The notes under the pieces: model-generated | What the model saw: only the letters and a program-made list of their open reading frames with translations | Database searches by the model: none | Told to the model about the DNA's origin: nothing | In this document: positions 28,816-54,018 of the stretch, piece by piece | Position numbering within the stretch: position 1 is the stretch's first letter | Layout of the letters: each line of letters begins with the position of its first letter | Position numbers and translations under genes: made by a program | IMG/VR virus record: IMGVR_UViG_3300045988_072432 | Length of the DNA: 64,000 bases | Source: a virus | Reading direction: 5' to 3' (one strand)

Positions 28816-30603
28816 CTATGATAGTTCGAATACGTATTCATAGGTAATCGTCGCAGCAGATTGATTAATGGAGAGTGTAATCTTCTCACCTGATTCATTT
28901 TGTGTAACTGTAACCGTAGCAGATCTTGAGGATTCTTCGACGTTCTCTGAAGCTTTACTAGTTACCTTACCACTACTAGCTGAAACGGTAGCCCAAGACG
29001 GAGTACCAGATAAGCTTACACCCACCTCATAAATATCTTCAGATTCAGACCCGTTAATTACTTTTGTCTTATAGGATGAGAAATATCGATATAAAGTATC
29101 TCCAACAGCATCATGATAAACGGATTCACTTGTAACCATACCATTCCAATAAAAGTGGTAATTATAACTTACACTAGCTCCACCTTGGGTAATATCCACA
29201 TAATCAGAAGCCCCCTCATAGTTAGCAAAGACTCTAACAGTTCTAGAACTGGTACTACTGTTTGAAGAAGCAGTAAGGGTAGTCCCAGATAATGTAAAAC
29301 CCGAAATACCATTGGTACTTAGGGAAGGATCTGCAGTATCATAGCCAACCCTTACTGTATAACCAGAAGTATAATTTGAATATCGATCTCTACTTGCACT
29401 TGGGTATAAAGTTACACTCCCCCCAGTATTAGAGATAGTGTATGAACTAGCAGTTAGAGTTACAGACCATGAACCATAAGAATAGCTCAACCATTTATTT
29501 GCCTCTTGATATACAGGTATACTTACAGATTTAGTTTTACCATTGAGTGATAAGGTACCAGTAAGTGTACCTACTTGGGTTCTAGATTTTACTGTATCTT
29601 CCAGATTACTTGCACTAACTGCAGTACCATAACTAATACTAGCACCACTTGTAATCGTACCTCCTCCCGTTGTAGAACCATTCCATCCCCAGGTCTGGGA
29701 ATAAGTTGGCAAAGTAGTAAATGAACTTCTTGTACCTCCACTTGCAGGTATATCTGTTACAGCTCCACCACTTGCAGTAATTTCACTATAAGTCTTATAA
29801 CCTGCAGATTGAGAACAAGATATGGTTACTTTCTTATTGGTTTCTGCTTGGGTTAAAGTTACGGTACCACTACGAGTACTGGTAGAAGTATTATTACCCA
29901 TAGTTACTGAAGTACCGGTACCGGATATACTTCCTCCATTAGCTCTAGTATAAGTTAAAGAAATTTGGTTACCATAGTTATGACCATTTCTTAATTCTTG
30001 CTTGTATGAAGTTACCGTGAAAGTTTTAGTACCTCCTGTAGCCCCAAATGACATAGAAGTGGGGTTTACACTAAACCCATAACTCCAAGATTGAGAAGCT
30101 GCAGCTTGGACAAAAGCAACAGTTACTATCTTACCTGTTATATTTTGTGTAAAAACTAAATTGACCGAACGTTGACTTAATGCAGTATTTTCGGTAGCTA
30201 CCCAATTACCCATACTACTATCGTTTAACCAATCTGGTACAGTGGTGGAGACCTCATAGGATATACCCTCTGAAGAACCAGAAGTAACTCCATCCAAGTA
30301 CTTCTGCCGAGTAGAGGTTAAGCTTACATAAATTGGGGTAGGTCTCCCACCTAATGCTGGAAAGTTAAGGGTAGTATTTTGAGCAACAAAAGTATACTTA
30401 TAAGTTACCTTGTGTATATCTTCCAGCTTTACACATTCATTATTTCCATAGGAACTGGCATTGGATAGTTCCAACCCCACATAATTCTCCCCTGTTCCTG
30501 TCGAGGAGAGTGCTAACAATTCAGCCTTGGTAGGGCAGTCATTTCCTGTCTTACCAAGGCCTACTTTAGTTTTGACAGCACTCCAGGTTGCTATCTCTCC
30601 CAT
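28816..30603 (-). CDS. BACON-repeat surface-display protein
   Basis: Several BACON-like units ending in ..R.a.v.v.Q: RSVNLVFTQNITGKIVTVAFVQAAA, RSGTVTLTQAETNKKVTISCSQSAG and SWATVSASSGKV...SRSATVTVTQNESGEKITLSINQSAA. Ser/Thr/Gly-rich. Confidence 0.55.
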   Translation of the reverse strand: MGEIATWSAVKTKVGLGKTGNDCPTKAELLALSSTGTGENYVGLELSNASSYGNNECVKLEDIHKVTYKYTFVAQNTTLNFPALGGRPTPIYVSLTSTRQKYLDGVTSGSSEGISYEVSTTVPDWLNDSSMGNWVATENTALSQRSVNLVFTQNITGKIVTVAFVQAAASQSWSYGFSVNPTSMSFGATGGTKTFTVTSYKQELRNGHNYGNQISLTYTRANGGSISGTGTSVTMGNNTSTSTRSGTVTLTQAETNKKVTISCSQSAGYKTYSEITASGGAVTDIPASGGTRSSFTTLPTYSQTWGWNGSTTGGGTITSGASISYGTAVSASNLEDTVKSRTQVGTLTGTLSLNGKTKSVSIPVYQEANKWLSYSYGSWSVTLTASSYTISNTGGSVTLYPSASRDRYSNYTSGYTVRVGYDTADPSLSTNGISGFTLSGTTLTASSNSSTSSRTVRVFANYEGASDYVDITQGGASVSYNYHFYWNGMVTSESVYHDAVGDTLYRYFSSYKTKVINGSESEDIYEVGVSLSGTPSWATVSASSGKVTSKASENVEESSRSATVTVTQNESGEKITLSINQSAATITYEYVFELS

Positions 30604-33600: not shown

Positions 33601-36600
33601 TTATCTTGAATACCCTGGATTAATTCCAGGTTACGTTGGATATTAGCAGTATTCTGAGTTACCAGAGCATTAGTAGCATTCAGAGAAGTTAACAACTCTG
33701 TACGAGTTTCACTTACAAAAGTTCTCAGCTCATTTACTGTGGTAGTAAGTGTAGTACTTAAGTTAGTAAAGGACTGTTGTAGAGTATTATCACCTTGTTC
33801 TCGTAAGTTCTTTTCGGCTTCAAGCTTATTCTCCAACTCGGTAAGCTTAGCAGTAATGGTTGCTGCAAAGTTGGGGTCATCACCAAGAGCCTTAGCAATC
33901 TCTGCCAAAGTGTCCAATACTTCGGGAGCTGAACCAATAATATTTTGGATTGCAGCCTCTACTTGTTCTGCATTCTGAAAATCAGAATCGTTTAATAACT
34001 CAGATACCTTAGTGATGTAGTTTGCATGTTCTTCAATGCCATCAAGTTTTGCATATAGCAAATCCGTGAAGTCATTAGAAGAAAGTACTTTACCATCTAC
34101 TTTATCTACCTTCTTATTATCCAGTGCTTGGTCAGCAGCAATCCTATCTGCCTTCTCTTGAGCAAGAGCATTACTGATAAGTGTATCTTGATTAGCTCTA
34201 TCAGTTGCTTCTTTATCAATATTGGTTTGAAGTAGAGTGTCTCCAGCCAAACGTTCATTTTTCTCTGTAAGCATATCTCGAGTGATACCGGCCATATCAT
34301 CCCTGTGATTCTGAAGATTGGTATCTATCTTTGCCTCCAGAGTGGTCTCTTTTGCAATAGCTCGGTCTTTCTCGGCATTAATAGCAGTGGTATTAGCATT
34401 TACCTTTGCTTTTAGTTCATTCATAGCATCGGTATTACCTACCTCTAGAGAATCAATACGAGTTCCTAAAGCATTATCACCTGCAATTCTATCTTCCTTC
34501 TCTTGATCTAACTTGAGGTTAAGTTTATCTACCTCGGATTCTAAAGCCTGTTTAGTATTATCCAATTTAGCAGTAAACTCCGTACTCAAAGCATTATCTG
34601 CAGCAGTACGATCTGCTATCTCTTTGTCAAGATTTACTTGAAGAACTTGGTCGGCAGCAATCCTCTCTACTCTCTCAGTATTAAGGTCTATATTAAGATT
34701 ATCAATCCTAGAACTTAAGGCAGTATCGGCATTGGTACGGTCAACGATTTCCTCGTTAATCATATCCTTAACTTCCTTGTAGTTATCACTTACGGTTTTA
34801 GTTAAGTTTGTGATTAACTCAGAATTTCTTTCGATATTGTGAGTATTCGTAGCAATAGCCGTTGTATTAGCATTTACTTGCTCAGTAAGCTCATTACGTA
34901 AGGTATTGATAGAATCTTGAATACTTAAAGCCAACTCGGCTATACGTCTATTAACGTTAGTCAAACTAACATTATAAGCATCATCTGCAGTCTTTCTGTC
35001 AGCAATCTCTTTATCTAAAGAAGCCTTAATAGCGGCATCGGCATCCTTTCTATCCTGGATTTCCTTGTTAAGATTATCCCTTACAACTCCAATTGCAGCA
35101 TCGCCAGTTGCAGACTTATTGTCTATATATTCTTTTAACTTAGCCTCAAGAGCAATGTCTGCATCTTTACGGGCTTGGGTTTCTGTAGCTACTTCAGCAC
35201 TATTTGCTTCATCACCTGCAATACGGTCCTCTATTTCCTGATTAACCTGTTCAGTAATAGCCGCCAATTTCTTGGTGATAGTTGTAGCAAAATTTGGATC
35301 ATTACCCAAAGCATCGGCAATTTCCTTAAGAGTATCAAGTACTTCAGGGGCAGCACCTACAATTTCTTGAATAGCTGCTTTTACTTCGTCCTCAGTTTGG
35401 AAACCTGAATCGTTGATAAGCTGAGATAAATGGGTAATATAGTTGGCATGTTCTTCAATACCGTCCAACTTAGCTTTGAGTATATCTGTAAAGTCATTCT
35501 TAGTTAATGAATAACCCTCTCGTTTATCCACCTTTTGATTATCGAGATCGATATCGGCATTTTCACGAGCCATAGCCTCTGCAGCAATTGCCTCGAGTAA
35601 TTGGGCTTTATCTGCTTGGCCCTGTAATTTTATATCCTCAATTTTATGATCAAGGACTAAATCCTGAGCAGCTCTTGTAGTTGCTTCTGAATCGATATTA
35701 TTCTGTAATACCTGGTCAGCAGAAGTACGAGCTTGTGCTTCTTTATCGATGTTACTCTGAAGAAGGTTATCGGCATTTGTACGATCTGCTACCTCTTTAG
35801 AAATATCATTGTGAAGAACTTGGTCCTCCGAATGACGGTCTACTCTTTCCTGATCTATCTTACTCTGAAGAGCCTGGGTATCAGATTGGCGATTAGTAAT
35901 TTCCTCGTTAATCTTAGAATCCAAGACAGTATCAGCATTGGTACGGTTGGCAGTCTCTTCAGCAATTTTAGCTTCGAGTGTGGCCTTATCATTGATATGA
36001 AGGGTCTTAAGTTCATTTACACTTTCCTTAATCTCAGCATCAGCAGCGATACGTTCTTCTCTTTCCTGTTGAATGAGTCCCTTGAGTTCATTCTCAAGTT
36101 TATTATTATTATTATTTATTTTATCGTTAAGGTCTTTGATGTCATCGGTATTCTTGTCTACCTTTCTTTCAACTCGATCAATTTCTGCCTTTAAATCTGA
36201 CTTTACAGTATCAATCTTCTTGTTAATCTGATCTAGCCCATATTCAAGATTATCCTGAACTGCTGCTACTGCTGCACCCAAAGCGGCTTCTGCCTCTTTA
36301 GCTCGATTAACCTCTTCTGTTAAAGCAGTACGTAATTCGGTTAGCTTATTGGTAATAGTTGTAGCAAAATTTGGATCATTACCCAAAGCTTCTGCTAACT
36401 CTTTAAGAGTATCAAGAGCATCATCTGCACCATCAACCAAATCACTAATCATCTGTTTAACTTCTTCCTCAGTTTGATACTTTAAGTCATTTTCAAGCTG
36501 AGATACCTTAGTGATGTAGTTTGCATGTTCTTCAATGCCATCAAGTTTAGCTTTTAACTCATCAGTGAAGTCATTCTTAGATAAGTCATATCCTTCCTTC

Positions 36601-36746
36601 TTATCTACCTTATTTTTGATAGAAAGTACGAAAGCCCAGAACTCATTTATAGTTCCCCCAAAGCCAGCACGAACAAAGTCATCATAGTAACCCTGTAACA
36701 ACCGCTGGTCAATCTCTTCGCAGGTGTAATATTTACTTACATACAT
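30606..36746 (-). CDS. giant (2046 aa) coiled-coil fibre protein with C-terminal S74 intramolecular chaperone domain
   Basis: Three copies of a roughly 95-aa module (KVDKxEGYxLSKNDFTDxLKAKLDGIEEHANYIT...LDTLKEIAxALGNDPNFATTIT). Six AGVMTAADKxxLD-type repeats. Long heptad-like stretches. C-terminal SDVRLKSNIKDL...LEQICQIP is the S74 autocleavage signature. Confidence 0.8.
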   Translation of the reverse strand: MYVSKYYTCEEIDQRLLQGYYDDFVRAGFGGTINEFWAFVLSIKNKVDKKEGYDLSKNDFTDELKAKLDGIEEHANYITKVSQLENDLKYQTEEEVKQMISDLVDGADDALDTLKELAEALGNDPNFATTITNKLTELRTALTEEVNRAKEAEAALGAAVAAVQDNLEYGLDQINKKIDTVKSDLKAEIDRVERKVDKNTDDIKDLNDKINNNNNKLENELKGLIQQEREERIAADAEIKESVNELKTLHINDKATLEAKIAEETANRTNADTVLDSKINEEITNRQSDTQALQSKIDQERVDRHSEDQVLHNDISKEVADRTNADNLLQSNIDKEAQARTSADQVLQNNIDSEATTRAAQDLVLDHKIEDIKLQGQADKAQLLEAIAAEAMARENADIDLDNQKVDKREGYSLTKNDFTDILKAKLDGIEEHANYITHLSQLINDSGFQTEDEVKAAIQEIVGAAPEVLDTLKEIADALGNDPNFATTITKKLAAITEQVNQEIEDRIAGDEANSAEVATETQARKDADIALEAKLKEYIDNKSATGDAAIGVVRDNLNKEIQDRKDADAAIKASLDKEIADRKTADDAYNVSLTNVNRRIAELALSIQDSINTLRNELTEQVNANTTAIATNTHNIERNSELITNLTKTVSDNYKEVKDMINEEIVDRTNADTALSSRIDNLNIDLNTERVERIAADQVLQVNLDKEIADRTAADNALSTEFTAKLDNTKQALESEVDKLNLKLDQEKEDRIAGDNALGTRIDSLEVGNTDAMNELKAKVNANTTAINAEKDRAIAKETTLEAKIDTNLQNHRDDMAGITRDMLTEKNERLAGDTLLQTNIDKEATDRANQDTLISNALAQEKADRIAADQALDNKKVDKVDGKVLSSNDFTDLLYAKLDGIEEHANYITKVSELLNDSDFQNAEQVEAAIQNIIGSAPEVLDTLAEIAKALGDDPNFAATITAKLTELENKLEAEKNLREQGDNTLQQSFTNLSTTLTTTVNELRTFVSETRTELLTSLNATNALVTQNTANIQRNLELIQGIQDNINGNYTAITDLLNNEIAARKAEDIRLEAKIDQNTSDLNTESEERKAADKVLQDNIDAEEAARTSADTALGKRIDKEIQDRTDADTALDNKFTNITDDHEERLVAEEATSDALPNTMVTGVSEISRDDSKLTFKVNTSTKDVSNNQYGESNEAIKELLPVTQSLAGVMTAADKIKLDGLDENSITGLSADSDAEKVTVTVTKDNGLNLDTTETFDLPQVSDTKAGTMTAKDKVELDRITTVNFALGDVTPNETSVGIAATKTVIEDGTVEQNPITLPASTAEKAGVQSAADKKLFDSLPEKFISYHRNPVPYSDHVDLVSLPSTFNRDTGVYELKGTDNISISKATKENAGVMTAVDKTNLDETLPNAIAQEIQDRKDAIEALDGKSEAALAEEVQARKDADTALDTKFTKAVNDEATARTSADTALGARIDKEISDRTAADTALDTKLQNNINALEAKHDAFVATKGQPDGFAPLDGNGLVPANHLPSYVDDIIEVYASYQMSNTGQLSDIELFSDPNYQTPIVGESGKIYVNVSEGEPSYQFRWSGNQFVDSNTSSLIIGQVQGTAFDGKRGKHLEDIIDSLSTEIVVDIKKPTCTSLNVTIPFDYTEKDRLSEIYETIVNKSITIPNVNSTYAGVMTAGDYSKLHTTLPNAIQTEEEARIAKDNEHDKLINSLPQEIMTVINGITQNTNNLGLKYFRWVKNTEEGSYSRGTDVNVTIPAATKTTAGVMTAADKTNLDNTVQGLANEITNRTNAINALRTELKTYVDDLIADTGSDVTALETKVNNHIANKSNPHAVTKTQVGLGNVNNTSDADKPVSTAQATAIADAKAAGTAAQTSINSHAGRRDNPHVVTRAQLSLATTDQVVFAKTTAPSGFFKESSDVRLKSNIKDLNHTLEQICQIPTKSFEMLGKEDEGTIAQNLEGLGFGKYVEEVPVEKSTVPNPEEFETLEINGEEYVLVKQVKYHKMSTLAIEGVKLLYDEIKALKAEIQELKNK
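34002..34049. repeat. 48-nt exact intragenic repeat, copy B
   Basis: Identical to 36501-36548. A diverged third copy lies near 35441-35490. Confidence 0.9.
36501..36548. repeat. 48-nt exact intragenic repeat, copy A
   Basis: agataccttagtgatgtagtttgcatgttcttcaatgccatcaagttt is identical to 34002-34049. Confidence 0.9.
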
Positions 36747-47530: not shown

Positions 47531-48123
47531 AACTTATCTTTGAAATTTTCGTAAGCATTTCTTAACTTTTGATCATAGGCATTCTGGGCATACCCGGGAC
47601 CATTATACTTTTTGGCAAAGCCAGCCCAGTCTTTTGCTTTGAGTTCTTTCAAACAACCAGAGTTATTCATGAAATAATACATGAGTTCCAATTGTTTCTC
47701 ATGAGATTCAGACATCTTGTGAACAAATTCGAAGACATCTTTACATCCACAAAGGTGGTGATTGAAGCCCATAATTTGGAACATACCCCAACTTGCAGAC
47801 TTTAATGCACATTCCTCATCAATTTCTTTGGCTAATTCGAGTCTCTTATACTCGTGTACACCTCCCAAATACTTCGATTTATCCCATTTAGGGAAGAAAA
47901 TCGTAGAATATCTTTTACAAAGGTAAGCTAAATCTCTGTCAGGGAATTTCTTATGTACTTCTTTGTACATAATGTGACCCTCAAAGAGAATTTGAGGCCT
48001 ACCGTCAGCTAAAAACCCATCTCTACCGGCAGCTTCCACCAATTGGACAGCTTTCAATAGGGCAGGTTCTAAACCTAAGCGAATAGCAAGGTCTTTAATC
48101 ATTTCATTTGTTAGTTTATCCAT
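47527..48123 (-). CDS. endolysin, N-acetylmuramidase (DUF3380/PF11860-type)
   Basis: GRDGFLADGRPQILFEGHIMYK, SASWGMFQIMGFNH, WAGFAKKYNGPGYAQNAYDQKLRNAY. Confidence 0.8.
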   Translation of the reverse strand: MDKLTNEMIKDLAIRLGLEPALLKAVQLVEAAGRDGFLADGRPQILFEGHIMYKEVHKKFPDRDLAYLCKRYSTIFFPKWDKSKYLGGVHEYKRLELAKEIDEECALKSASWGMFQIMGFNHHLCGCKDVFEFVHKMSESHEKQLELMYYFMNNSGCLKELKAKDWAGFAKKYNGPGYAQNAYDQKLRNAYENFKDKL

Positions 48124-48156
48124 AACTTATCAGTTTTAATGGTTCAATTTTAGTAA

Positions 48157-48164
48157 CAAAAGTA
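48157..48164 (-). promoter_or_regulatory. TAnnTTTG promoter element (TACTTTTG) for the lysis operon
   Basis: Minus strand AATACTTTTGTTAC, 34 nt upstream of the endolysin ATG. Confidence 0.4.
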
Positions 48165-48233
48165 TTGCTTATAACCCATTTTTAGGATGTTTCGAGGTTC
48201 TATTATCATATATAACTTATAAAATAATGCAAT

Positions 48234-48731
48234 ATGGGCAAGAAAAATGAATGCCAGATATGTGGCAAACCAATTAATTTAGAGGAATTCGATGAAACTA
48301 GAGAGATTCCCCAACTTATGGCAAGAAAACAAGTTTGTTTTAAATGTGCTTTTTGGTTTAATCGATTAGCTTATGATAAAGAACTTGAAAAAGAGAAGAA
48401 AATTGCCGTAATTACTCCCGATTATTCCCATTGGATAACTAGAATACCAGGAAGTATTCTAATGGTTCCTTCGGCTTTCGGGGGAATTTACCAAACTAAA
48501 CTCCAACCAGTAAACACTCTGGGAGTTATTGATGAAGACCGAAAGAAACTTTTCATCATCCGTTATAATAACATCACTCACCAGGGCACTATACCGGAGC
48601 ATCTAAGAGATGCTTTTAAAGTAAACGGAATATTTCTATCTCCACAGGAATACAAAATGCTAGAGGATTACCGGGGCAATGCCTATGAATTTATAAAAAA
48701 TAAAATAGATAATGCAATAAATAAAGAATAA
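48234..48731 (+). CDS. hypothetical zinc-ribbon protein
   Basis: CQICGK ... CFKCAFW. Confidence 0.55.
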   Translation: MGKKNECQICGKPINLEEFDETREIPQLMARKQVCFKCAFWFNRLAYDKELEKEKKIAVITPDYSHWITRIPGSILMVPSAFGGIYQTKLQPVNTLGVIDEDRKKLFIIRYNNITHQGTIPEHLRDAFKVNGIFLSPQEYKMLEDYRGNAYEFIKNKIDNAINKE

Positions 48732-48736
48732 TTTCG

Positions 48737-48744
48737 TATATTTG
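48737..48744 (+). promoter_or_regulatory. TATATTTG promoter element
   Basis: GTATATTTGCATAAAG, 30 nt upstream of the ATG at 48774. Confidence 0.5.
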
Positions 48745-48773
48745 CATAAAGAAAATTTCTAAATAAAATAGAT

Positions 48774-49169
48774 ATGAAAAAAGAAAAGAAAGAAGCTAAA
48801 AAGCTCAAAGAAGGTGATGAAGTTATCTTCGTATTATCAGGAAGACCCATCACAGAGAAAGTAACAGTAGAATCCATCGATAAGAAAGGTGGATTTGCAA
48901 TGCTCAGTAACCGGGTAAAAGTTGCAAGAACCTTGGGTCCTGATGATACATATCCAAGATTGGATGGGCAAAAGGGAGAAGTTCGTCCGCTTACCGAAGA
49001 AAATGAAAGAGTATTCCTTGCATATAAGGCCTATTCCTCAATTAAGAGAAACATAGAATTACTTGATAAGGAAATTAGAAGTATGAAAGATTCGAAAGCT
49101 TTCGATATGATGATTGAATTTGATAAGAAGCTTACCAAGGTTATTAACAAATACCTCAAAGAACAATGA
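48774..49169 (+). CDS. hypothetical protein
   Basis: 131-aa Lys/Glu-rich ORF. Confidence 0.55.
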   Translation: MKKEKKEAKKLKEGDEVIFVLSGRPITEKVTVESIDKKGGFAMLSNRVKVARTLGPDDTYPRLDGQKGEVRPLTEENERVFLAYKAYSSIKRNIELLDKEIRSMKDSKAFDMMIEFDKKLTKVINKYLKEQ

Positions 49170-49357
49170 CTACAGTATTAGCAATAATTTATTTGGTATG
49201 CTTACCGTTCACTGTATTTTTTGTAAGGGCTTGCTTGGATTATTTACCCTATACTCACAAAATACACTCTCTCGTTTTATTCATCTCGGTATGGATAGTA
49301 TTACCTCTATTTCCGATTTATCTATTAATCAGATACATAAAATACAAATTACTATGA
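49166..49357 (+). CDS. small two-TM membrane protein
   Basis: 63 aa. ATGA overlaps at both ends. Confidence 0.5.
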   Translation: MTTVLAIIYLVCLPFTVFFVRACLDYLPYTHKIHSLVLFISVWIVLPLFPIYLLIRYIKYKLL

Positions 49358-49653
49358 GATACTTTTTTGACAGAGATGGTAATTATGCTGGGACATCAAT
49401 GCAAGGGTGGGAGATTCTTCTCCTACTCTTGTTCCCAGTTGCTTTAATAATTTTCCTCGTATTCTTACCTTTCTATGTATTTTATAAATACAGTTCTAGA
49501 GAAGAGGATAAAAAATACGAGGAAGAACATCCAGAAATACTAAAAGTAGATTCTTATATTACTTGCTGGTATCCCTGGCATAGGTATTCTGTTGCATATA
49601 CACTGGCTCTTATATTCTGGGTAATTGCTTTTATAATTGGGATATTATCTTGA
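49354..49653 (+). CDS. small membrane protein
   Basis: Start taken at ATG 49354 (MRYFFDRDG), coupled to the previous stop. Two TM helices. The longer track version from 49114 overlaps two genes. Confidence 0.5.
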   Translation: MRYFFDRDGNYAGTSMQGWEILLLLLFPVALIIFLVFLPFYVFYKYSSREEDKKYEEEHPEILKVDSYITCWYPWHRYSVAYTLALIFWVIAFIIGILS

Positions 49654-49667
49654 TCTCAATATAAGTC

Positions 49668-50339
49668 TTAGGTTGGAACTCCCCAATAAAAGTTCAAATC
49701 TAATGGATATTTTTTAGTGGGGTTAAAACTACTAGAGAGTATAAGAGTACCACTGCTAACAGAGGGGGTTGAAACTTTTGTAAGAGTATAGGAACCTAAG
49801 CCAGTTGTTTTTGTTGTAAAGTATGAATTACTTGGTAAATTGTAGTTAGGGCTAAAAGCATTACCATTCTTATCAAGGCAGGACCAAGACAACATGTCGT
49901 AATCCCCTGGGTACATAGGAGAAATATAGACATTAATCATATTTCTATTTTGATTTACTATCCAATTCTTATATAGGGTACCATCGGCCATTGATCCATA
50001 TTCACCACTAATATTGGTATCTGCAGCAAAAAAACTATCCATTGTAATCCCAAAGAGAATTAGGGGAGAGAAACGTATTTCCCAGTATTCTTTTTTTCCA
50101 GGAGTAGTAATATTAATATTTATTTTATTGCCAGATTCTTCTTGTACCAGATTCAATACACCGGTATACCCACCGGCACTATCTATGGGAGTAATGAGTA
50201 CTTGGTTATCTATATTTATATCTCTTTCTAAGAGATACTTAGATGGATTACTAATAGAAGCAGAAAAGCCTACCGAAGTATTACCAGTAGGCTTCCCATT
50301 TATTAGTTTTCTCTTATAAGACTCTATTATCCAATCCAT
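49668..50339 (-). CDS. BACON-like paralogue 1 (conserved frame extends to 50390 without an ATG)
   Basis: N-terminus ..DWIIESYKRKLINGKPTG. GVLNLVQEESGNKININITTPG. See the finding for this region. Confidence 0.6.
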   Translation of the reverse strand: MDWIIESYKRKLINGKPTGNTSVGFSASISNPSKYLLERDINIDNQVLITPIDSAGGYTGVLNLVQEESGNKININITTPGKKEYWEIRFSPLILFGITMDSFFAADTNISGEYGSMADGTLYKNWIVNQNRNMINVYISPMYPGDYDMLSWSCLDKNGNAFSPNYNLPSNSYFTTKTTGLGSYTLTKVSTPSVSSGTLILSSSFNPTKKYPLDLNFYWGVPT

Positions 50340-50404
50340 AGTTTCACCATAGGGGATTTCTTGATTAATCTCGGTGGATCCCCCCCTCCCCTAATTTAAG
50401 AACT

Positions 50405-50986
50405 TTATTTTCCATATTCTTTTAAGTTTTGAGGTAAATAATTGTATTTATCATCTTTAGAAGGTTCTACAGAAAAATCTGCGAGATATGGTAAATCATT
50501 ACCAGATGTTCTTCTTACTCTAACTAAGTTAGATGTTCTAGAACCATTAGCCATGGTAGTGATACCAGTTACATTCCCATTTTCTAAAGTAAACCCAGAT
50601 CCCAATACAAAGTTGATTGTCAACTTAGATGTTACCGAATAGGCCGCCATCCATTGGATATCATAGAGTTGATATGAACCAGAAGTCCCAGCCTCCCCGT
50701 ATATACTGAAAGAGATTGGGTTGTTTAATTTATTTGCTTCTTGTTTTACAATAATTTCAATTGTATTTCCAGAATCCTCTTGGTCTAAAGTTACTCGGAT
50801 CTGTCTATCTGAGTTACCTGGGTTTGCTGATTTAGTGGTAAAAGTTACATCATACTTAGGGACATCGGTATTAAGATATGGTGCAACACTTACATCCAAC
50901 CAGGTAGCTACATTATGTACTGTAAAGGGTACTCTTTCTTTAGAAGCTTCATTCCCATTTACTAGTTTTTTCTTATAAGAAGTCAC
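50405..50986 (-). CDS. BACON-like paralogue 2 (GTG start in track; conserved frame extends to 51091 without an ATG)
   Basis: TSYKKKLVNG. WLDVSV...SDRQIRVTLDQEDSGNTIEIIVKQEAN. Confidence 0.6.
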   Translation of the reverse strand: MTSYKKKLVNGNEASKERVPFTVHNVATWLDVSVAPYLNTDVPKYDVTFTTKSANPGNSDRQIRVTLDQEDSGNTIEIIVKQEANKLNNPISFSIYGEAGTSGSYQLYDIQWMAAYSVTSKLTINFVLGSGFTLENGNVTGITTMANGSRTSNLVRVRRTSGNDLPYLADFSVEPSKDDKYNYLPQNLKEYGK

Positions 50987-51118
50987 AAGAATAGGACTTG
51001 AAGCTCCACTACTACCATTCAGGGTTATAGTACTTGACTCTACTATCCCCCTACTACTGATTCTGAATTCTGTTTTTCTTCCATAATCACTTTAAATATT
51101 AGATTAGTTACTACTTAC

Positions 51119-51868
51119 TCATTCAATGAGTAAGTTCCAATTTGCTCTCCTTGAGATTTGGGGATATATATCGAGAAGATCTATGATGGTCATACTGTCT
51201 AAACGATCGAAAAAGTTTATATCGGCACTATAGATAATTTGTGGACTCGGGTAGTTGAAGTCTGCAACCATTACATAAGTACCAGCGGGTATCTTGATTC
51301 CAGAGGGCTGAGCTGCAACCCAGGCATCATCCTTATATTGTAAATTTGGACCAGATACTACTTCATCGTTTGCTGTAGCCCAGGGAGAATACCTATACTT
51401 ACGATGAATATCATAGATAAGGGCTTTTGTAGTATTATCCCCAGTATTATCTTCATAAGTTATCCATACAAAGCATCTATCCACATTAGATGCTTTCAAG
51501 GTTTGTACATTCAGCACTAGCTTTTGAGGAGCTGCAGCTTGAGTGAAGCCAACATAGATTATATTACCTGATTCAGATTGAATAAATCTATTGCTAGCAT
51601 TTCTCTCAGAGCTTGTAGTATTTTCTTGGCATACTGCTTTTACGTAATATCCCAATTCTGTGACTCCAAGCTGGTTAGCAATTCCCCAATCTGTGACCTC
51701 TATCAGGGAAGTAGTAAACCAGCTAAGGTTAGAATAATCCCCAGTGAAGCTTACTCCTATCCTCTCTGCCAGATCCCAATTTATCAGTTTTCTCTTATAA
51801 GACTCGAGGAGATAATAGAAAGTCCCCTCCCCCGAAGGCAATTTAAAAGTTTTAGTTATAGTACTCAT
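51119..51868 (-). CDS. BACON-like paralogue 3 (intact ATG start)
   Basis: MSTITKTFKLPSGEGTFYYLLESYKRKLINW. SWFTTS...ERNASNRFIQSESGNIIYVGFTQAAA. Confidence 0.65.
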   Translation of the reverse strand: MSTITKTFKLPSGEGTFYYLLESYKRKLINWDLAERIGVSFTGDYSNLSWFTTSLIEVTDWGIANQLGVTELGYYVKAVCQENTTSSERNASNRFIQSESGNIIYVGFTQAAAPQKLVLNVQTLKASNVDRCFVWITYEDNTGDNTTKALIYDIHRKYRYSPWATANDEVVSGPNLQYKDDAWVAAQPSGIKIPAGTYVMVADFNYPSPQIIYSADINFFDRLDSMTIIDLLDIYPQISRRANWNLLIE

Positions 51869-51964
51869 TGTTTTTTGATTTGGTTTATAGAAAGAACTTT
51901 GATATCGCCATTACCAAAGGGATAATCCGAAGTCTATGATATTATATAATCAATATAAAGAATT

Positions 51965-52240
51965 ATGAGAAAGTATCAGTATCAGATTTACTACCATACA
52001 AGCAGAGGAAGGTACTTCATTAAGATTAGGTATTCCTTCCTGGGATTGGTGTTTTGGCTTACACTTAGAGATAAGAATTCGAGTAATATAGAAACCTTCC
52101 TTGATAAGGATAAGGCAATTGAAAGGGCAGAAGATTATTTAAGGTATTTATACCTAAAGAGAAAAAATAGTAGGGTGTTAAAGGTTACTGGGAGAATAGA
52201 TATTACCAGTAGGTTAAAATCAGTGAGGGAGGATTATTAA
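51965..52240 (+). CDS. hypothetical protein
   Basis: 91-aa basic ORF. Confidence 0.45.
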   Translation: MRKYQYQIYYHTSRGRYFIKIRYSFLGLVFWLTLRDKNSSNIETFLDKDKAIERAEDYLRYLYLKRKNSRVLKVTGRIDITSRLKSVREDY

Positions 52241-52241
52241 G

Positions 52242-52508
52242 ATGGTGAAGGTTGAAACCATTAGGGATGATAATGAAAAGAGAATCCTAAAGTGTTCTGA
52301 GGATAATAGGGTTTGGTATCAGATATGGATTACCCAATTGGATATGAATTGTATAGAAAGGTACTTTGATGGGTATGGTGAAGTTAAGAGGTGGTGGTTA
52401 AGGAATCTTCAACAGTATTATGTTTTCTTTTATGAGAAGAAAGGTGGTAAGGTTCGAGGAGTTCTTGGGAAAGATAGGACTAAGGATTTAATTCGTGCTA
52501 TACTTTAA
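52242..52508 (+). CDS. hypothetical protein
   Basis: 88-aa ORF starting 1 nt after the previous stop. Confidence 0.45.
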   Translation: MVKVETIRDDNEKRILKCSEDNRVWYQIWITQLDMNCIERYFDGYGEVKRWWLRNLQQYYVFFYEKKGGKVRGVLGKDRTKDLIRAIL

Positions 52509-52513
52509 TTAGT

Positions 52514-52536
52514 TGCCAGGGATGTTAGGTCTCTGG
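52514..52536 (+). terminator. hairpin after the plus-strand gene pair
   Basis: GCCAGGGA...TCTCTGGC (one mismatch) followed by TTCTTTGTGTG. Confidence 0.4.
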
Positions 52537-52605
52537 CTTCTTTGTGTGTTATGGGGGCATGTGTGGTGTGGGATATCTTGGCATGCCTCTAATACGAGGT
52601 GTCAA

Positions 52606-52623
52606 AAAGTTGTGGTACTAAAA
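52606..52623 (+). repeat. 18-nt direct repeat, copy 1 (aaagttgtggtactaaaa)
   Basis: Exact copy at 52666-52683, 60 bp away, in a non-coding GT-rich stretch. Confidence 0.85.
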
Positions 52624-52665
52624 TGTGTATTTGCCTTCAAGGTACCCCTTAATGTGAGGGCTTCG

Positions 52666-52683
52666 AAAGTTGTGGTACTAAAA
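52666..52683 (+). repeat. 18-nt direct repeat, copy 2
   Basis: Identical to 52606-52623. Confidence 0.85.
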
Positions 52684-52728
52684 GGGGAGTACGGTTACGT
52701 TAAATTTAACATTTGAAAATAAAAATTA

Positions 52729-52756
52729 AGGGACAAACATTTTTATTTAGTCCTTT
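52729..52756 (-). terminator. hairpin + T-tract ending the AT-rich island
   Basis: Minus strand AAGGAC...GTCCCTT followed by AATTTTTATTTT. Confidence 0.45.
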
Positions 52757-52764
52757 GCTTTCTT

Positions 52765-52893
52765 TTAGTCCTCAAAAGTTTCGTTATCGTCTTTTAAAAT
52801 TTCTTTTATATCCTTATAGCATTGAATAACTAAATAAGCTATAATTACAAACAATGCTATATTAATAATTAAATATTGTGTAAATACTACCAT
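52765..52893 (-). CDS. 42-aa hydrophobic peptide (not in supplied track)
   Basis: Own translation MVVFTQYLIINIALFVIIAYLVIQCYKDIKEILKDDNETFED*: one TM helix and an acidic tail. Confidence 0.35.
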   Translation of the reverse strand: MVVFTQYLIINIALFVIIAYLVIQCYKDIKEILKDDNETFED

Positions 52894-52920
52894 ATCTTTA
52901 TAAATGATTTATTTTAGTTA

Positions 52921-52942
52921 GTAGGGGAAATATTTCCCCTAC
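52921..52942. terminator. perfect 22-bp palindrome GTAGGGGAAATATTTCCCCTAC
   Basis: Lies 13 nt downstream of the stop at 52955. Confidence 0.55.
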
Positions 52943-52954
52943 TTTAATTTTGTT

Positions 52955-53365
52955 TTACTTCAAAGATTTTTTTACTATTTCGAGACCTTTTATTAAAATT
53001 TCTTTCTTTTCTTCTTTTGTGTTTTCGCTTGCAATCGAAGAAAAAGAAAAATCATTTAAAACATAGACTTGTTTATAAAAGTCTATAAAGCCCTCGATTA
53101 GTTTTTTATCTGCATTTGTTGCGATAGTTGAAAGAAAATTAAATGTAACATTTCTAAACTTTTTTCGCAAAGATTTGATTTGCTTTTCGTTTGCTCCCAA
53201 AAACAACTCTTTTTTATAAATTTCTGTTTTTGTCCCTAAAGCTGTTTTAAAAAGTCCTTGATTTTTTTCTTTCACAGACTTTAAAACGTCTAAAGCAATT
53301 AAACTATTTGCTTTGCTGTTTGCTACTGCTTTTTCTACACTCACTTTGTTAATTTGATTTTTCAT
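52955..53365 (-). CDS. hypothetical protein in AT-rich island
   Basis: Start trimmed to ATG 53365 (MKNQINKVSVEK); the track start at 53425 is a TTG in a T-rich leader. Lys-rich, helical-looking. Confidence 0.5.
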   Translation of the reverse strand: MKNQINKVSVEKAVANSKANSLIALDVLKSVKEKNQGLFKTALGTKTEIYKKELFLGANEKQIKSLRKKFRNVTFNFLSTIATNADKKLIEGFIDFYKQVYVLNDFSFSSIASENTKEEKKEILIKGLEIVKKSLK

Positions 53366-53467
53366 AATAAAAACGCTTGAATATTTTATTATTATTATTT
53401 TATAACCTTTTTGATAGATATTCAAGACTTATTAAACTATCTAATAAGGTTTTTCATTTCTGTATTA

Positions 53468-53475
53468 CAAAGATA
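53468..53475 (-). promoter_or_regulatory. TATCTTTG promoter element
   Basis: Minus strand GTTCTTATCTTTGTAATAC. Confidence 0.4.
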
Positions 53476-53573
53476 AGAACTATTTTTTAATTAGCAAAAT
53501 TTTTAAAGAAATAATTTCTTAAAAAGTTTTAATTAAAAATTTATTCAAATATCGCTTTATCTTTTTGACATTG

Positions 53574-53581
53574 CAAAGATA
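53574..53581 (-). promoter_or_regulatory. TATCTTTG promoter element (second copy)
   Basis: Minus strand CCGTATCTTTGCAATG, 106 bp upstream of the first copy. Confidence 0.35.
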
Positions 53582-53792
53582 CGGACTTTATTTTAATCTA
53601 CAAACATTTTCAAGAAAATTTTTTGAGAAAATGAATATTTTTATTTTTAAAATTATTTTTGTGAAAAATCTATAAATTCAAAAATTTATTGCACCCTAAA
53701 AAGGACTTAATTTTTGCACTTAATTTTGGGGGTTCACAAGGGGAATCTTCGCACGCCTTGTAGTGGGCATATATGATATGTATATGGATATT

Positions 53793-53990
53793 CCTATATG
53801 GCCTATGCCTGTCCTCTTGAGAGTGTATTATATACCTGTATATTGATAGGGCCATTAATGGACTAAGGTGATAAAGAATTAAGGCCCATTAGCTATATCC
53901 CTATTATTGCCCTCTATAAACCTATTAGGTCCTAATTCAATAAGGCCATATAGGGACTATGGTAAGCCTATAGAGATTAGGATAGCCTAT
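53793..53990. repeat. iteron-like cluster of CCTAT motifs
   Basis: Exact CCTAT at 53793, 53802, 53900, 53921, 53967 and 53986. Inverted ATAGG at 53846 and 53950. Variant CTCTAT at 53912. Confidence 0.7.
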
Positions 53991-54018
53991 AAGGGCTTAC
54001 TAAGTTAGCGTAAGTAAA

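What the first reader, a model, noticed from the sequence alone, without database searches (positions are those of the whole stretch)
49668..51868. Tandem triplet of BACON-like paralogues in which two conserved N-termini are thrown out of frame at G-runs (candidate phase-variable or frameshift-dependent cassette)
Three adjacent minus-strand genes share an N-terminal block (ESYKRKLING / TSYKKKLVNG / ESYKRKLINW) and a BACON-like segment. Their C-terminal halves are unrelated.

Only the upstream copy has an ATG in front of the whole conserved N-terminus (51868: MSTITKTFKLPSGEGTFYYLLESYKRKL).

In the other two copies the homologous coding frame continues upstream of the annotated start with no in-frame ATG:
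- Copy 2 is open for 35 codons above its GTG (..IVESSTITLNGSSGASSPILV-TSYKKKL). The 11 nt AGTACTATAAC are identical to codons 2-5 of copy 3, but the ancestral ATG position reads TCA.
- Copy 1 is open for 17 codons (GRGGSTEINQEIPYGET-MDWIIESYKRKL).

In both copies a short ATG-initiated ORF in another frame runs into a G-run and stops just after it:
- ATG 51084: MEEKQNSESVVGG*, ending at the G5 run (C5 on the plus strand at 51047-51051).
- ATG 50415: MENKVLKLGEGGIHRD*, crossing G4-A-G7 (50380-50391). This is the longest G/C homopolymer I saw in the window.

Adding one G to the G5 run, or deleting one G from the G7 run, fuses each ATG-ORF to the conserved frame. Copy 3 carries the homologous GGGGGAGGGG in frame (SGEG).

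This is the architecture of slipped-strand contingency loci, as reported for polyG tracts in Campylobacter phage receptor-binding genes. It is also compatible with programmed -1/+1 frameshifting. Either would give a one-ON, two-OFF set of alternative surface or receptor-binding modules. I do not know of this being described for phages of Bacteroidota-type hosts. The trivial alternatives are homopolymer sequencing errors or decaying duplicates that use internal starts.
Basis: partly seen in the sequence, partly recalled or inferred. Interest (0 to 1): 0.8.

Follow-up and report, generated by a model that had tools for sequence, protein, structure and literature searches.

The report
Variable polyG switch in gut-phage genes
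A widespread human-gut phage carries a small cassette of related immunoglobulin-like genes, and one of them is thrown in or out of frame by the length of a run of Gs near its start; this is a known kind of genetic on/off switch that I could not find reported for this phage group.

Summary
The sequence facts hold. There are three minus-strand paralogues. Two have upstream ATG mini-ORFs in another frame. C7 at 50380-50386 is the only G/C run of 7 or more in 64 kb.

Copy 1 (49668-50415) sits at a real length-variable polyG site:
- Independent assemblies that match the window exactly over up to 10.75 kb differ only here (G6, intact 248 aa). The G6 protein is on six contigs and the window's G7 form on one.
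- Relatives carry G5 to G11 at the same codons. Of 43 unique IMG/VR 5' ends with a run of 6 or more, 13 are in frame and 30 are not. Of 119 gut-metagenome contigs, 55 are in frame and 64 are not.
- Of 26 unique 5' ends with shorter runs, 23 are in frame.
- Out-of-frame alleles mostly keep an intact downstream ORF (dN/dS about 0.4).

Copy 3-type genes carry the same tract in relatives (G7, G8, G10).

Copy 2 is different. Its break is a fixed 1-nt deletion in codons 4-5, not at the G5 run. It looks like ordinary inactivation.

The phage is a Flandersviridae-like myovirus. The proteins have an Ig/BACON-like N-domain, and their function is inferred only.

PolyG switching is already known in Campylobacter phages and proposed for T-even phages. 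This is a new member of a known kind. Read-level proof is missing.

The parts
49668..50415 (-). Copy 1: the full gene as read in sibling assemblies (248 aa, MENKVLKLGEGGSTEINQ...). In the window it is split by G7 into a 16-codon mini-ORF (ATG 50415) and a 223-aa ORF (ATG 50339).
   Evidence: L001, L002 and L005 are identical to the window except for G6 in place of G7. The 248-aa product P0001 (DAO89958.1) is on 6 contigs. The 223-aa form is on 1.
50380..50391 (-). PolyG tract of copy 1 (gene strand GGGG-A-GGGGGGG, codons 9-12). This is the length-variable switch site.
   Evidence: The homologous site in relatives carries G5-G11, pure or interrupted. There are 53 tract variants in 119 metagenome contigs.
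50028..50034 (-). PolyT run (T7 on the gene strand, encoding Phe-Phe in MDSFFA) in the middle of copy 1. It is in frame here and is a second frameshift hot spot in relatives (T7-T9).
   Evidence: L061, L063/64, L065, L066 and L071 change frame exactly at this run.
50405..51084 (-). Copy 2: the ancestral gene extent (ATG 51084 to stop 50405). In the window only the GTG-initiated 193-aa ORF (50986-50405) is open. Probably inactivated or N-terminally truncated.
   Evidence: Intact 220-aa and 218-aa versions exist in L003, L004 and P0178 (29 contigs).
51072..51078 (-). Site of the copy 2 frameshift: gene strand GAAAAAC (A5), where intact relatives have GAAAAAAC (A6) or GAAAAACT.
   Evidence: All five window-type assemblies carry the same 1-nt deletion.
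51047..51051 (-). G5 run of copy 2. It is homologous to the polyG region but has the same length in intact and broken relatives, so it is not the site of the shift.
51119..51868 (-). Copy 3: the first gene of the cassette, intact (249 aa). The block 51088-51871 is absent from strains L003 and L004.
51824..51833 (-). Interrupted G tract of copy 3 (GGGGGAGGGG, in frame, codons 12-15). It is homologous to pure G7, G8 and G10 runs in relatives.
   Evidence: L083 has G10 and is ON. L082 has G8 and is OFF. L084 has GGA-G8 and is OFF. L081 has the non-slippery TGTAAGGAGGGG and is ON.
51882..51900 (-). Conserved upstream motif AAAGTTCTTTCTATAAACC, 33-37 nt before the first cassette gene in the loci examined. 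Presumed shared expression signal (inferred).

Best explanation
**What it is.** The window comes from an ~88.8-kb human-gut myovirus that matches the description of the proposed 'Flandersviridae'. Between an unannotated early-type region and the lysis/packaging genes, these phages carry a cassette of one to three paralogous genes of about 220-320 aa. Each has an Ig-like (BACON-like) N-terminal beta-sandwich and a variable C-terminal domain.

**How the cassette is organised.** The first gene, behind a conserved upstream motif, is nearly always intact and usually has a non-slippery 5' end. Later genes, and sometimes the first, carry a run of Gs at codons ~9-13. This run encodes a Gly-Gly-Gly linker using GGG, a rare Gly codon in this genome.

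**How the switch works.** The run changes length by slipped-strand mispairing during phage DNA replication (inferred mechanism). The start codon therefore moves in and out of frame with an otherwise intact gene body.

**State of this window.**
- Copy 3 is ON. Its tract is interrupted.
- Copy 1 is an OFF variant (G7) of a gene that is ON (G6) in six sibling contigs.
- Copy 2 was knocked out separately by a 1-nt deletion in codons 4-5 and is not part of the switch.

**Likely consequence (inferred, not shown).** Phage populations would be mixed in which accessory Ig-like surface protein (adhesin or receptor-binding type) they make. That is bet-hedging of the kind described for polyG tracts in Campylobacter phages.
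For: **The tract is the only difference between otherwise identical genomes.**
- Window vs L001, L002 and L005: 0 mismatches over 10.75, 4.39 and about 2.3 kb respectively, with a single indel, G7 vs G6. Over 9.9 kb L005 differs from the window by 3 mismatches and the same single indel.
- In a second lineage, eight independent ENA/Logan assemblies are 98.6-100% identical. Six carry G10 and two carry G9. Those two each show a single gap against L073, and the other five compared with L073 show none.

**The site is conserved while its length is not.**
- The leader ATGGAAAATAAAGTTCTTAAATTA is followed by G5-G11 in 42 window, sibling and IMG/VR loci, of which 14 are in frame and 28 are not.
- In 119 further gut-metagenome contigs, 55 are in frame and 64 are not, with 53 tract variants. 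G9 is the commonest in-frame length, flanked by G10, G8 and G7 out-of-frame alleles.
- Full-length proteins in public data carry 2, 3 or 4 glycines at this point.

**Frame breaks track the tract.** Among 69 unique cassette 5' ends, a run of 6 or more gives 30 OFF and 13 ON. A run shorter than 6 gives 3 OFF and 23 ON (Fisher p=3.6e-6). All 13 unique MEIINFRAVERST-type ends (15 loci) are ON. All 15 listed members of the MEEKTEFRISSSRGGERST cluster (20 members) are full length.

**It is not general sequencing noise.** In the same loci, 504 flanking-gene instances are intact. They contain 90 A/T7 and 566 A/T6 runs, all in frame.

**OFF alleles are not decaying faster than ON alleles.** The body ORF is intact in 40 of 58 OFF and 37 of 49 ON alleles. 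Median dN/dS is 0.40 for OFF-OFF pairs.

**The tract runs against the genome's habits.** GGG makes up 12% of Gly codons. G/C runs are depleted about 2- to 4-fold across the window.

**A paralogue has the same tract at the homologous codons**.

**Every complete cassette keeps at least one intact gene**.

**Protein and phage identity.**
- The AF2 N-domain is an all-beta fold with pLDDT 66-89. It resembles Bacteroides BVU_0925 (TM 0.60) and viral BACON-annotated proteins.
- Sheath, tape measure, portal, major capsid protein, terminase, Baseplate_J, DnaB and a BACON-bearing structural gene are present. This matches Benler 2021 (PMC8008677).
Against: - No reads were available, so heterogeneity within one population is not shown. 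All the evidence compares assembly consensus sequences.
- The window's G7 is seen in one assembly against six with G6. It could be a consensus error.
- Near-identical genome pairs mostly share the tract length. Switching is therefore not extremely fast at the consensus level.
- About a quarter of alleles carry further disruptions: at the polyT run, at an A-run in the KKK motif, and elsewhere. This also fits relaxed selection on a dispensable gene.
- There are no equal-length control homopolymers elsewhere in these genomes to calibrate assembly error at G8-G11.
- The proteins have no significant family assignment.
- Their peptides were not found in the supplements of the adhesin paper.
- The C-terminal domain model is unreliable (pLDDT below 50).
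- Virion location and adhesin function are inferred only.
Confidence: 0.65

Rival explanations
1. Relaxed selection, not a switch. The second and third cassette genes are dispensable duplicates. They break at whatever sites mutate fastest (polyG, polyT, polyA). The polyG tract is a tolerated mutational hot spot with no adaptive on/off role, and OFF alleles are on the way to loss.
For: - Copy 2 in this lineage is broken by a fixed 1-nt deletion. In L072 it is broken by a nonsense codon.
- About 25% of polyG-type alleles have extra disruptions, in ON and OFF alleles alike.
- Cassette size varies from 1 to 3 genes and whole genes come and go. Copy 3 is absent in L003 and L004.
- In the IMG/VR set the ON fraction (13 of 43) is what random phase would give.
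Against: - OFF alleles keep intact ~235-codon bodies about as often as ON alleles (40 of 58 vs 37 of 49).
- dN/dS of OFF-OFF pairs is about 0.4, not about 1.
- In the larger set ON exceeds one third (55 of 119, p=0.0035), with G9 (ON) the modal length.
- Long pure G runs built from a rare codon persist at the same codons in two paralogues, in a genome that otherwise avoids G runs.
Confidence: 0.2
2. Homopolymer sequencing or assembly error. The window's G7, and much of the tract-length scatter, are consensus mistakes at long G runs. The genes are simply intact.
For: - G7 is seen in one assembly, against six contigs with G6 in an otherwise identical sequence.
- Long mononucleotide runs are known to be error-prone in library PCR and base calling (general knowledge).
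- No control runs of 8 or more exist in the flanking genes.
Against: - Independent assemblies of the same strain reproduce the same length: three with G6 fetched here, six with G10, and several identical pairs.
- OFF forms recur across many samples. The 200-aa OFF product is on 16 contigs.
- In-frame alleles differ by whole glycine codons.
- 504 flanking genes with 90 A/T7 runs show essentially no frameshifts.
- Most sources are short-read SPAdes or MEGAHIT-style assemblies, judging by contig names. The sequencing platforms were not verified.
Confidence: 0.1
3. Recoding at the G run. RNA polymerase slippage or ribosomal frameshifting on the G tract restores the frame in a fraction of products. 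The gene would then be expressed whatever the DNA length, and the tract tunes dosage rather than switching the gene off.
For: - More than half of natural alleles are out of frame yet keep intact bodies under purifying selection.
- Long homopolymers are known sites of transcriptional slippage. This is established mainly for A/T runs (general knowledge).
Against: - All three phases occur (55, 39 and 25), so no single programmed shift is conserved.
- G runs do not fit the canonical -1 heptamer X XXY YYZ with YYY = AAA or UUU (established knowledge).
- No Rfam frameshift element is present.
- Non-slippery in-frame alleles exist and are always ON.
- Nothing here measures RNA or protein.
Confidence: 0.05

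Closest known systems
Hypermutable polyG tracts in Campylobacter phages (Sorensen et al. 2021, Cell Rep 35:109214; cited in PMC12823448, seen; the paper itself was not read here)
   Same: Both are phage-encoded G homopolymers inside coding sequence whose length changes put a gene in or out of frame. In both cases this is proposed to create phenotypic diversity in host interaction.
   Different: - The host phylum and phage family differ: a Flandersviridae-like gut myovirus with a presumed Bacteroidota host.
- Here the tract sits at a fixed position (codons ~9-13) at the 5' end of paralogous ~245-aa Ig-like genes in a 1-3 gene cassette.
- It is conserved across hundreds of metagenomic genomes and coexists with non-slippery alleles.
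- Receptor-binding function and population heterogeneity are demonstrated experimentally for the Campylobacter phages. Here they are only inferred.
Contingency loci (simple-sequence repeats) in T2/T4 and other phages (Gomez, Barrick and Waters, bioRxiv 10.1101/2025.10.21.683753)
   Same: Both involve reversible frameshifts at short repeats during phage replication, generating mixed progeny as bet-hedging. In both, several hot spots can lie in one region.
   Different: The T-even sites are many short repeats spread over all gene classes, detected at read level. Here there is one long, evolutionarily conserved G tract (plus polyT and polyA secondary sites), concentrated in a single accessory cassette of a genome that otherwise avoids G/C runs.
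Bacterial contingency loci with polyG/polyC tracts (Campylobacter, Neisseria, Haemophilus surface-structure genes)
   Same: Both have a homopolymer near the 5' end of a surface-interaction gene. Both show many tract lengths among close relatives, with ON and OFF alleles in nature and an intact downstream ORF.
   Different: Here the switch is encoded by a lytic-type phage genome and copied by a phage replication module. DnaB is in the window. PolA is reported for the family, and I did not look for a polymerase gene here.
BACON/Ig-like modular adhesins of prevalent gut phages (Apjok et al. 2026, PMC13370021) and BACON-bearing structural genes of 'Flandersviridae' (Benler et al. 2021, PMC8008677)
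   Same: The phage group is the same or closely similar. The N-domain is Ig/BACON-like. The domain make-up is modular and highly variable. A role in adhesion is proposed.
   Different: The cassette proteins do not reach the Pfam BACON threshold. Their signature peptides are absent from that paper's supplementary files. They lie outside the structural block. Neither paper, as far as I read or searched it, mentions homopolymer switching: term searches in PMC13370021 found no 'polyG', 'homopolymer' or 'slippage'.

Membership tests
Homopolymer (slipped-strand) contingency locus | A mononucleotide tract long enough to slip (about 7 or more) lies inside the 5' coding region, so that +/-1 nt changes the reading frame | tested here: met
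   G4-A-G7 at 50380-50391, codons 9-12 of copy 1. Relatives have G5-G11 at the same site.
Homopolymer (slipped-strand) contingency locus | Tract length differs between otherwise identical or near-identical genomes | tested here: met
   Window G7 vs L001, L002 and L005 G6, with 0 mismatches over up to 10.75 kb. L073-L078 carry G10 and L079-L080 carry G9. Most other near-identical pairs share the tract.
Homopolymer (slipped-strand) contingency locus | Both ON and OFF alleles occur in nature and the downstream ORF is kept intact in OFF alleles | tested here: met
   55 ON and 64 OFF in 119 contigs. The body is intact in 40 of 58 OFF and 37 of 49 ON alleles. dN/dS is about 0.40 for OFF-OFF pairs.
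Homopolymer (slipped-strand) contingency locus | The tract is over-represented relative to the genome background or codon usage | tested here: met
   It is the only G/C run of 7 or more in 64 kb, against 3.7 expected. GGG is 12% of Gly codons. Nearly all G/C runs of 7 or more in ~500 kb of related loci are at cassette 5' ends.
Homopolymer (slipped-strand) contingency locus | Length heterogeneity within a single population, and reversible switching at high rate | not testable with these tools
   No raw reads or cultures were available. Only assembly consensus sequences were compared.
Homopolymer (slipped-strand) contingency locus | A phenotypic consequence of ON vs OFF (host range, adsorption, adhesion) | not testable with these tools
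   The phage is uncultured and the protein function is unknown.
Homopolymer contingency locus: copy 2 specifically | The frame break lies in a variable homopolymer tract | tested here: not met
   The break is a fixed 1-nt deletion in codons 4-5 (A5 vs A6, or loss of T). It is identical in five assemblies. The G5 run is invariant. L072 has a nonsense codon instead.
Programmed ribosomal frameshift / recoding site | The same direction of shift is required and conserved among relatives | tested here: not met
   Phases 0, 1 and 2 occur in 55, 39 and 25 contigs. In-frame non-slippery alleles exist.
Programmed ribosomal frameshift / recoding site | A known frameshift RNA element or stimulatory structure is present | tested here: not met
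   There is no Rfam match at E<=0.1 in 48000-54000. I did not fold the sequence downstream of the tract.
BACON domain (Pfam PF13004) | The Pfam score reaches the gathering threshold (25 bits) | tested here: not met
   Copy 2 scores 16.9 bits (E 0.006). Copies 1 and 3 have no hit. None of the 50 copy 1 homologues matched BACON at E<=1.
BACON domain (Pfam PF13004) | An Ig-like beta-sandwich fold resembling BACON structures | tested here: inconclusive
   The AF2 N-domain (residues 1-107) has pLDDT 66-89. Foldseek finds 2mqc BVU_0925 at TM 0.60. It also finds viral proteins annotated BACON or 'Binding domain, N-terminal' at E 6e-4 to 5e-3, with low whole-chain TM.
'Flandersviridae' (proposed gut phage family, Benler 2021) | Genome of ~85 kb. 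Contractile sheath, major capsid protein, portal, protease and TerL block with a BACON-bearing structural gene, followed by a DnaB-type replication module. Human-gut origin. | tested here: met
   The source contig is 88,846 nt and relatives are 84-90 kb. PHROG and Pfam hits cover the named genes. Contigs are labelled as human gut metagenome.
'Flandersviridae' (proposed gut phage family, Benler 2021) | Placement inside the TerL and PolA clades of the family; CRISPR-spacer link to Bacteroides or Parabacteroides | not tested
   No reference Flandersviridae sequences or spacer sets were compared. No relative of the cassette protein was found in 185,579 species genomes.

The most novel reading that the evidence does not exclude
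One of the most prevalent phage families of the human gut carries a conserved, family-wide polyG contingency switch, with secondary polyT and polyA hot spots. The switch turns accessory members of a hyperdiverse Ig-like adhesin or receptor-binding cassette on and off, while one paralogue stays constitutive. Every phage population would then be a mixture of virion surface types. This would be phage-side phase variation mirroring the well-known phase variation of Bacteroides capsules.
Probability: 0.4. Interest if true: 0.75.

Novelty: new member of a known kind. Interest (0 to 1): 0.62.

Why it matters
Gut Bacteroidota escape phages by phase-varying their capsules and surface proteins. Whether their phages carry a matching stochastic switch is largely unexplored.

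This locus offers a concrete case that can be tested with data already public. It is a conserved polyG tract in a hyperdiverse Ig-like gene cassette: 5,921 protein clusters at 90% identity. The phage group is reported to be as frequently detected as crAss-like phages.

If ON and OFF variants coexist within individuals, this would help explain long-term coexistence of phage and host. It would also be a source of virion heterogeneity in mucus or host binding.

There is a practical consequence too. Gene callers currently annotate roughly half of these genes as truncated ~200-aa proteins. Homopolymer 'polishing' of assemblies would erase real biology at this site.

Tried and rejected
- Megablast and tblastn against the GenBank phage collection found nothing for the cassette. 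The portal protein found only two unannotated metagenomic phages.
- The exact window-type tract pattern was absent from IMG/VR and the metagenome collection. The window's own contig seems not to be searchable there.
- No relative of the cassette protein exists in 185,579 species-representative genomes. This gives no prophage-based host call.
- Pfam, PHROGs, a PDB sequence profile and Pfam scans of 50 homologues gave no significant family. The sub-threshold DUF3244 and MucBP hits were not used.
- The AF2 C-terminal domain was unreliable (pLDDT below 50). Whole-chain Foldseek hits were therefore ignored, apart from the N-domain match.
- Sigma-70 promoter and terminator scans were at or below shuffle expectation.
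- Rfam found nothing.
- Stop-codon reassignment was considered and rejected. The mini-ORFs end in mixed TAG, TAA and TGA stops, and the window's long ORFs read normally in table 11.
- An internal start as a conserved alternative was rejected. The window's ATG 50339 is lineage-specific and relatives read GAGAGATGG (ERW) there. Gene callers fall back on a start ~43 codons in, which would delete the first 3-4 strands of the predicted N-domain.
- Signature peptides of the cassette were not in the supplements of the gut-phage adhesin paper.


Full report
**1. What is in the window**

- There are three adjacent ORFs: 51868-51119 (copy 3, 249 aa, ATG), 50986-50405 (copy 2, 193 aa, GTG) and 50339-49668 (copy 1, 223 aa, ATG).
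- The body frames stay open 35 and 17 codons above the called starts of copies 2 and 1.
- ATG 51084 opens MEEKQNSESVVGG*. ATG 50415 opens MENKVLKLGEGGIHRD*.
- ATG 50415 overlaps the stop of copy 2 (ATGGAAAATAA). This is typical phage gene packing.
- C7 at 50380-50386 is the only G/C homopolymer of 7 or more in the 64 kb.
- A first-order Markov simulation expects 3.7 runs of 7 or more and 15 runs of 6 or more. The window has 1 and 7. The genome therefore avoids such runs.
- The three proteins are paralogous over the first ~110 residues only (E = 3e-7, 3e-4, 7e-4).

**2. Copy 1: the same genome with one G fewer**

An exact-protein look-up with copy 3 returned independent ENA assemblies.

- L001 (75.7-kb scaffold) and L002 (4.4 kb) match the window with 0 mismatches over 10,750 and 4,389 nt. 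The single difference is one gap.
- That gap is the copy 1 run. They have GGGGAGGGGGG (G6) where the window has G7.
- With G6, ATG 50415 opens an intact 248-aa gene.
- L005 (ERZ652648) also has G6.
- In the 15-billion-protein collection the 248-aa form (also NCBI DAO89958.1) is on six contigs. The 223-aa form is on one contig, of 88,846 nt, which is evidently the window's source.
- The copy 2 G5 run and the copy 3 tract are identical in all of these assemblies.

**3. The tract is conserved across the phage group, but its length is not**

A search of IMG/VR with the 248-aa protein gave 65 related loci from phages of about 45-90 kb.

- In 42 loci (including the window and its siblings), the gene starts with the same 24 nt, ATGGAAAATAAAGTTCTTAAATTA. 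A G tract follows, then (A)GATCYACC (..RST..).
- The tract ranges from G5 to G10, pure or interrupted. Fourteen loci are in frame with the ATG and 28 are not.
- Strains L003 and L004 have a different leader (MKKLTLTKQ) but an uninterrupted G10 at the same place, in frame.
- Other alleles encode the same Gly-rich linker without a slippery run. Examples are AGGGGTGGTGAAAGA, GGAGGTGGTGAA, and the leader MEIINFRAVERST. These are in frame.

Pooling the 69 unique cassette 5' ends gives a clear association:

| Longest G/C run in first 66 nt | OFF | ON |
|---|---|---|
| 6 or more | 30 | 13 |
| less than 6 | 3 | 23 |

Fisher p = 3.6e-6.

A second, independent census used a pattern scan of public metagenome contigs. 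Most are labelled human gut.

- It returned 119 contigs: 55 in frame and 64 out of frame, in phases 0, 1 and 2 at 55, 39 and 25.
- There are 53 distinct tract variants.
- G9 is the commonest allele (23, ON). It is flanked by G10 (15, OFF), G8 (7, OFF) and G7 (10, OFF).
- The ON share exceeds one third (binomial p = 0.0035).
- Full-length proteins in the big protein database show 2, 3 or 4 glycines at this point.
- Gene callers there often report ~200-204-aa truncated forms. In contrast, all 15 listed members of the non-slippery MEEKTEFRISSSRGGERST cluster (20 members) are full length.

**4. A second strain with a tract-only difference**

The 200-aa truncated product P0167 sits on 16 contigs. 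Eight places were fetched, from eight different samples, and they are 98.6-100% identical.

Six carry G10 and two carry G9. Those two each show a single gap against L073. The five other G10 loci compared with L073 show none. Both lengths are out of frame, because the look-up selected for the truncated product.

**5. Controls against sequencing noise and against decay**

- In the same loci, 504 instances of nine flanking genes are intact. One or two are possible exceptions.
- These flanking genes contain 566 A/T6 and 90 A/T7 runs, all in frame. They contain no run of 8 or more and no G/C run of 7 or more.
- General homopolymer error is therefore excluded. Error specific to G8-G11 cannot be calibrated, because there are no such runs elsewhere.
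- Reproducibility argues against error. Independent assemblies repeat the same length: three fetched with G6, six with G10, and several identical pairs.
- Out-of-frame alleles keep an intact body about as often as in-frame ones: 40 of 58 vs 37 of 49.
- Pairwise dN/dS (Nei-Gojobori, not tree-corrected) of the post-tract body has a median of 0.40 for OFF-OFF pairs.
- GGG makes up only 12% of glycine codons in 15 large ORFs of the window.

**6. Copy 3-type genes carry the same tract**

The window's GGGGGAGGGG (51824-51833, in frame) corresponds to the following in relatives:

| Locus | Tract | State |
|---|---|---|
| L083 | G10 | ON |
| L082 / L070 | G8 | OFF |
| L084 / L008 | GGA-G8 | OFF |
| L085 | G7 | in frame at the tract, but broken by A5 instead of A6 in the KKK motif |
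| L081 / L010 | TGTAAGGAGGGG (non-slippery) | ON |

**7. Copy 2 is a different story**

- The body frame above its GTG reads ..KTEFRISSRGIVESSTITLNG...
- Intact relatives read MEEKTEFRISSRG.. (L003, L004, 220 aa) and MEEKTEFKISRG.. (P0178, 218 aa, 29 contigs).
- Their DNA has GAAGAAAAAACAG. L072 has GAAGAAAAACTAG. The window and all four sibling assemblies have GAAGAAAAACAG.
- The G5 run is unchanged throughout.
- The break is therefore a 1-nt deletion in codons 4-5, fixed in this lineage.
- In L072 the same gene is instead interrupted by a TCA-to-TGA nonsense codon at codon 28.
- Copy 2-type genes are rare, with only two clusters in the protein database.
- I read this as ordinary inactivation, with a possible N-truncated product from the GTG. 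It is not a switch.

**8. Further hot spots**

A polyT run encoding Phe-Phe in the middle of the gene is T7 to T9 in relatives. In the window it is A7 on the plus strand at 50028-50034.

It is the exact point of frame change in L061, L063/64, L065, L066 and L071. About 9 of the ~105 metagenome alleles long enough to score change frame near that site. Around a quarter of alleles carry some second disruption. This also fits relaxed constraint.

**9. Cassette architecture**

- In about 51 unique complete cassettes, the conserved motif AAAGTTCTTTCTATAAACC (window 51900-51882) lies 33-37 nt before the first gene.
- The first gene is nearly always intact and mostly non-slippery.
- The polyG 'MENKVLKL' gene sits second or third.
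- Every cassette keeps at least one intact gene. The three apparent exceptions in that table are an artefact of my boundary, since those ORFs are intact.
- Relative to L003 and L004, the window lineage has an extra block, 51088-51871 (copy 3), placed exactly at the start codon.

**10. What the proteins and the phage are**

- There is no significant Pfam, PHROG or PDB-sequence match. BACON is sub-threshold in copy 2 only.
- An AlphaFold model built on 50 homologues gives a confident all-beta N-domain (residues 1-107, pLDDT 66-89). The leader forms the first strand. The C-domain is unreliable.
- Foldseek matches the N-domain to Bacteroides vulgatus BVU_0925 (TM 0.60). It also matches viral proteins annotated BACON or 'Binding domain, N-terminal'.
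- The family is hyperdiverse: 5,921 clusters at 90% identity.
- The window encodes terminase, portal, protease, major capsid protein, sheath, tape measure, Baseplate_J, a 2,046-aa fibre-like protein, a BACON-bearing 595-aa protein and a DnaB helicase.
That family is assigned to Bacteroides and Parabacteroides by CRISPR spacers (PMC8008677).
- A 2026 paper shows that Flanders-like myoviruses encode BACON/Ig-like adhesins that bind epithelium (PMC13370021).
- The cassette's signature peptides are not in that paper's supplements. Term searches there found no polyG, homopolymer or slippage.
- A surface or adhesin role for the cassette is therefore an inference. It rests on the fold, the conserved-N/variable-C layout, the lack of a signal peptide (by inspection) and the hyperdiversity.

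**11. Mechanism and rivals**

The best-supported reading is a DNA-level homopolymer switch. The polyG tract slips during replication and sets the frame of accessory paralogues, while one paralogue stays constitutive.

- Shown: the tract is the sole difference between identical genomes in two lineages; the site is conserved while its length varies; frame breaks are tightly associated with the tract; OFF bodies stay intact under purifying selection.
- Inferred: slippage as the cause; coexistence of variants within a population; reversibility; a phenotypic effect.

The rivals are:
- non-adaptive decay of dispensable duplicates (0.2);
- consensus error at long G runs (0.1 overall, but perhaps 0.3-0.4 for the window's single G7 call taken alone);
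- RNA or ribosome slippage making expression independent of frame (0.05).

Programmed frameshifting in a fixed direction is not supported, because all three phases occur.

**12. Comparison and novelty**

PolyG-driven phase variation of phage genes is established for Campylobacter phages (Sorensen 2021; seen only as a citation). Simple-repeat contingency loci have been proposed for T2, T4 and other phages (bioRxiv 10.1101/2025.10.21.683753).

My literature searches found no report of such a switch in gut Bacteroidota-type phages or Flandersviridae. These searches cover open-access text only.

I therefore rate this a new member of a known kind. It is of good interest because of the prevalence of the phage group and because it can be tested on public reads.

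Noticed in passing
window 50028-50034 (A7 on + strand; T7 on the gene strand in copy 1); L061, L063-L066, L071 at the homologous site: A second homopolymer hot spot: a polyT run encoding the Phe-Phe of the D-x-F-F motif. It is T7-T9 in relatives and is the exact point of frame change in at least five IMG/VR loci.
   Followed up: partly
L085:1201-1290; window copy 2 'TATAAGAAAAAACTA' about 50966-50980: The A6 run inside the conserved SYKKKL motif is A5 in L085. This breaks a copy 3-type gene whose G7 tract is in frame. It is a third frameshift-prone run in the family.
   Followed up: no
window 51088-51871 vs L003:5998-6001 and L004:5998-6001: The whole copy 3 gene plus its downstream spacer is present or absent between strains. 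The junction lies exactly at the start codon of the next gene. Cassettes range from one to three genes across relatives.
   Followed up: partly
window 51805-51776 and 50324-50295: A 30-nt patch is 93% identical between copy 3 and copy 1 (encoding ESYKRKLIN). Typical copy 1-type relatives read ERWTIQSQKSKYVNG there. This looks like gene conversion between paralogues in this lineage.
   Followed up: no
leader ATGGAAAATAAAGTTCTTAAATTA, window 50415-50392, and about 150 related loci: The 24-nt leader before the G tract is essentially invariant in loci that differ by 2-10% elsewhere. This suggests a constrained initiation region or a recombination handle for cassette shuffling.
   Followed up: no
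L024:3957-3974: One allele has two abutting homopolymers, G7-ATC-C9, at the switch site and is out of frame. Related proteins read ..FRSGGDPPP...
   Followed up: no
window 50263-50297 (minus strand): A 14-bp-stem inverted repeat (GGGAAGCCTACTGG...CGGTAGGCTTTTC) lies inside the copy 1 coding sequence, just after the ESYKRKLING block. It is lineage-specific and may be chance.
   Followed up: no
whole window: The genome is depleted in homopolymers. G/C runs of 6 or more number 7 against 15 expected. There are no A runs of 8 or more and only one T run of 8 or more, despite about 36% G+C.
   Followed up: partly
window 28816-30603 and 30606-36746 (minus strand): The structural block holds a 595-aa protein with a C-terminal BACON domain above the Pfam threshold (29.5 bits). 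It also holds a 2,046-aa protein with repeated tail-fibre-type PHROG matches. These are the more conventional candidates for adhesion or receptor binding.
   Followed up: no
L007:1378-1640: The homologue of the 88-aa gene upstream of the cassette appears frameshifted in one IMG/VR contig. It is the only clear break among about 504 flanking-gene instances.
   Followed up: no
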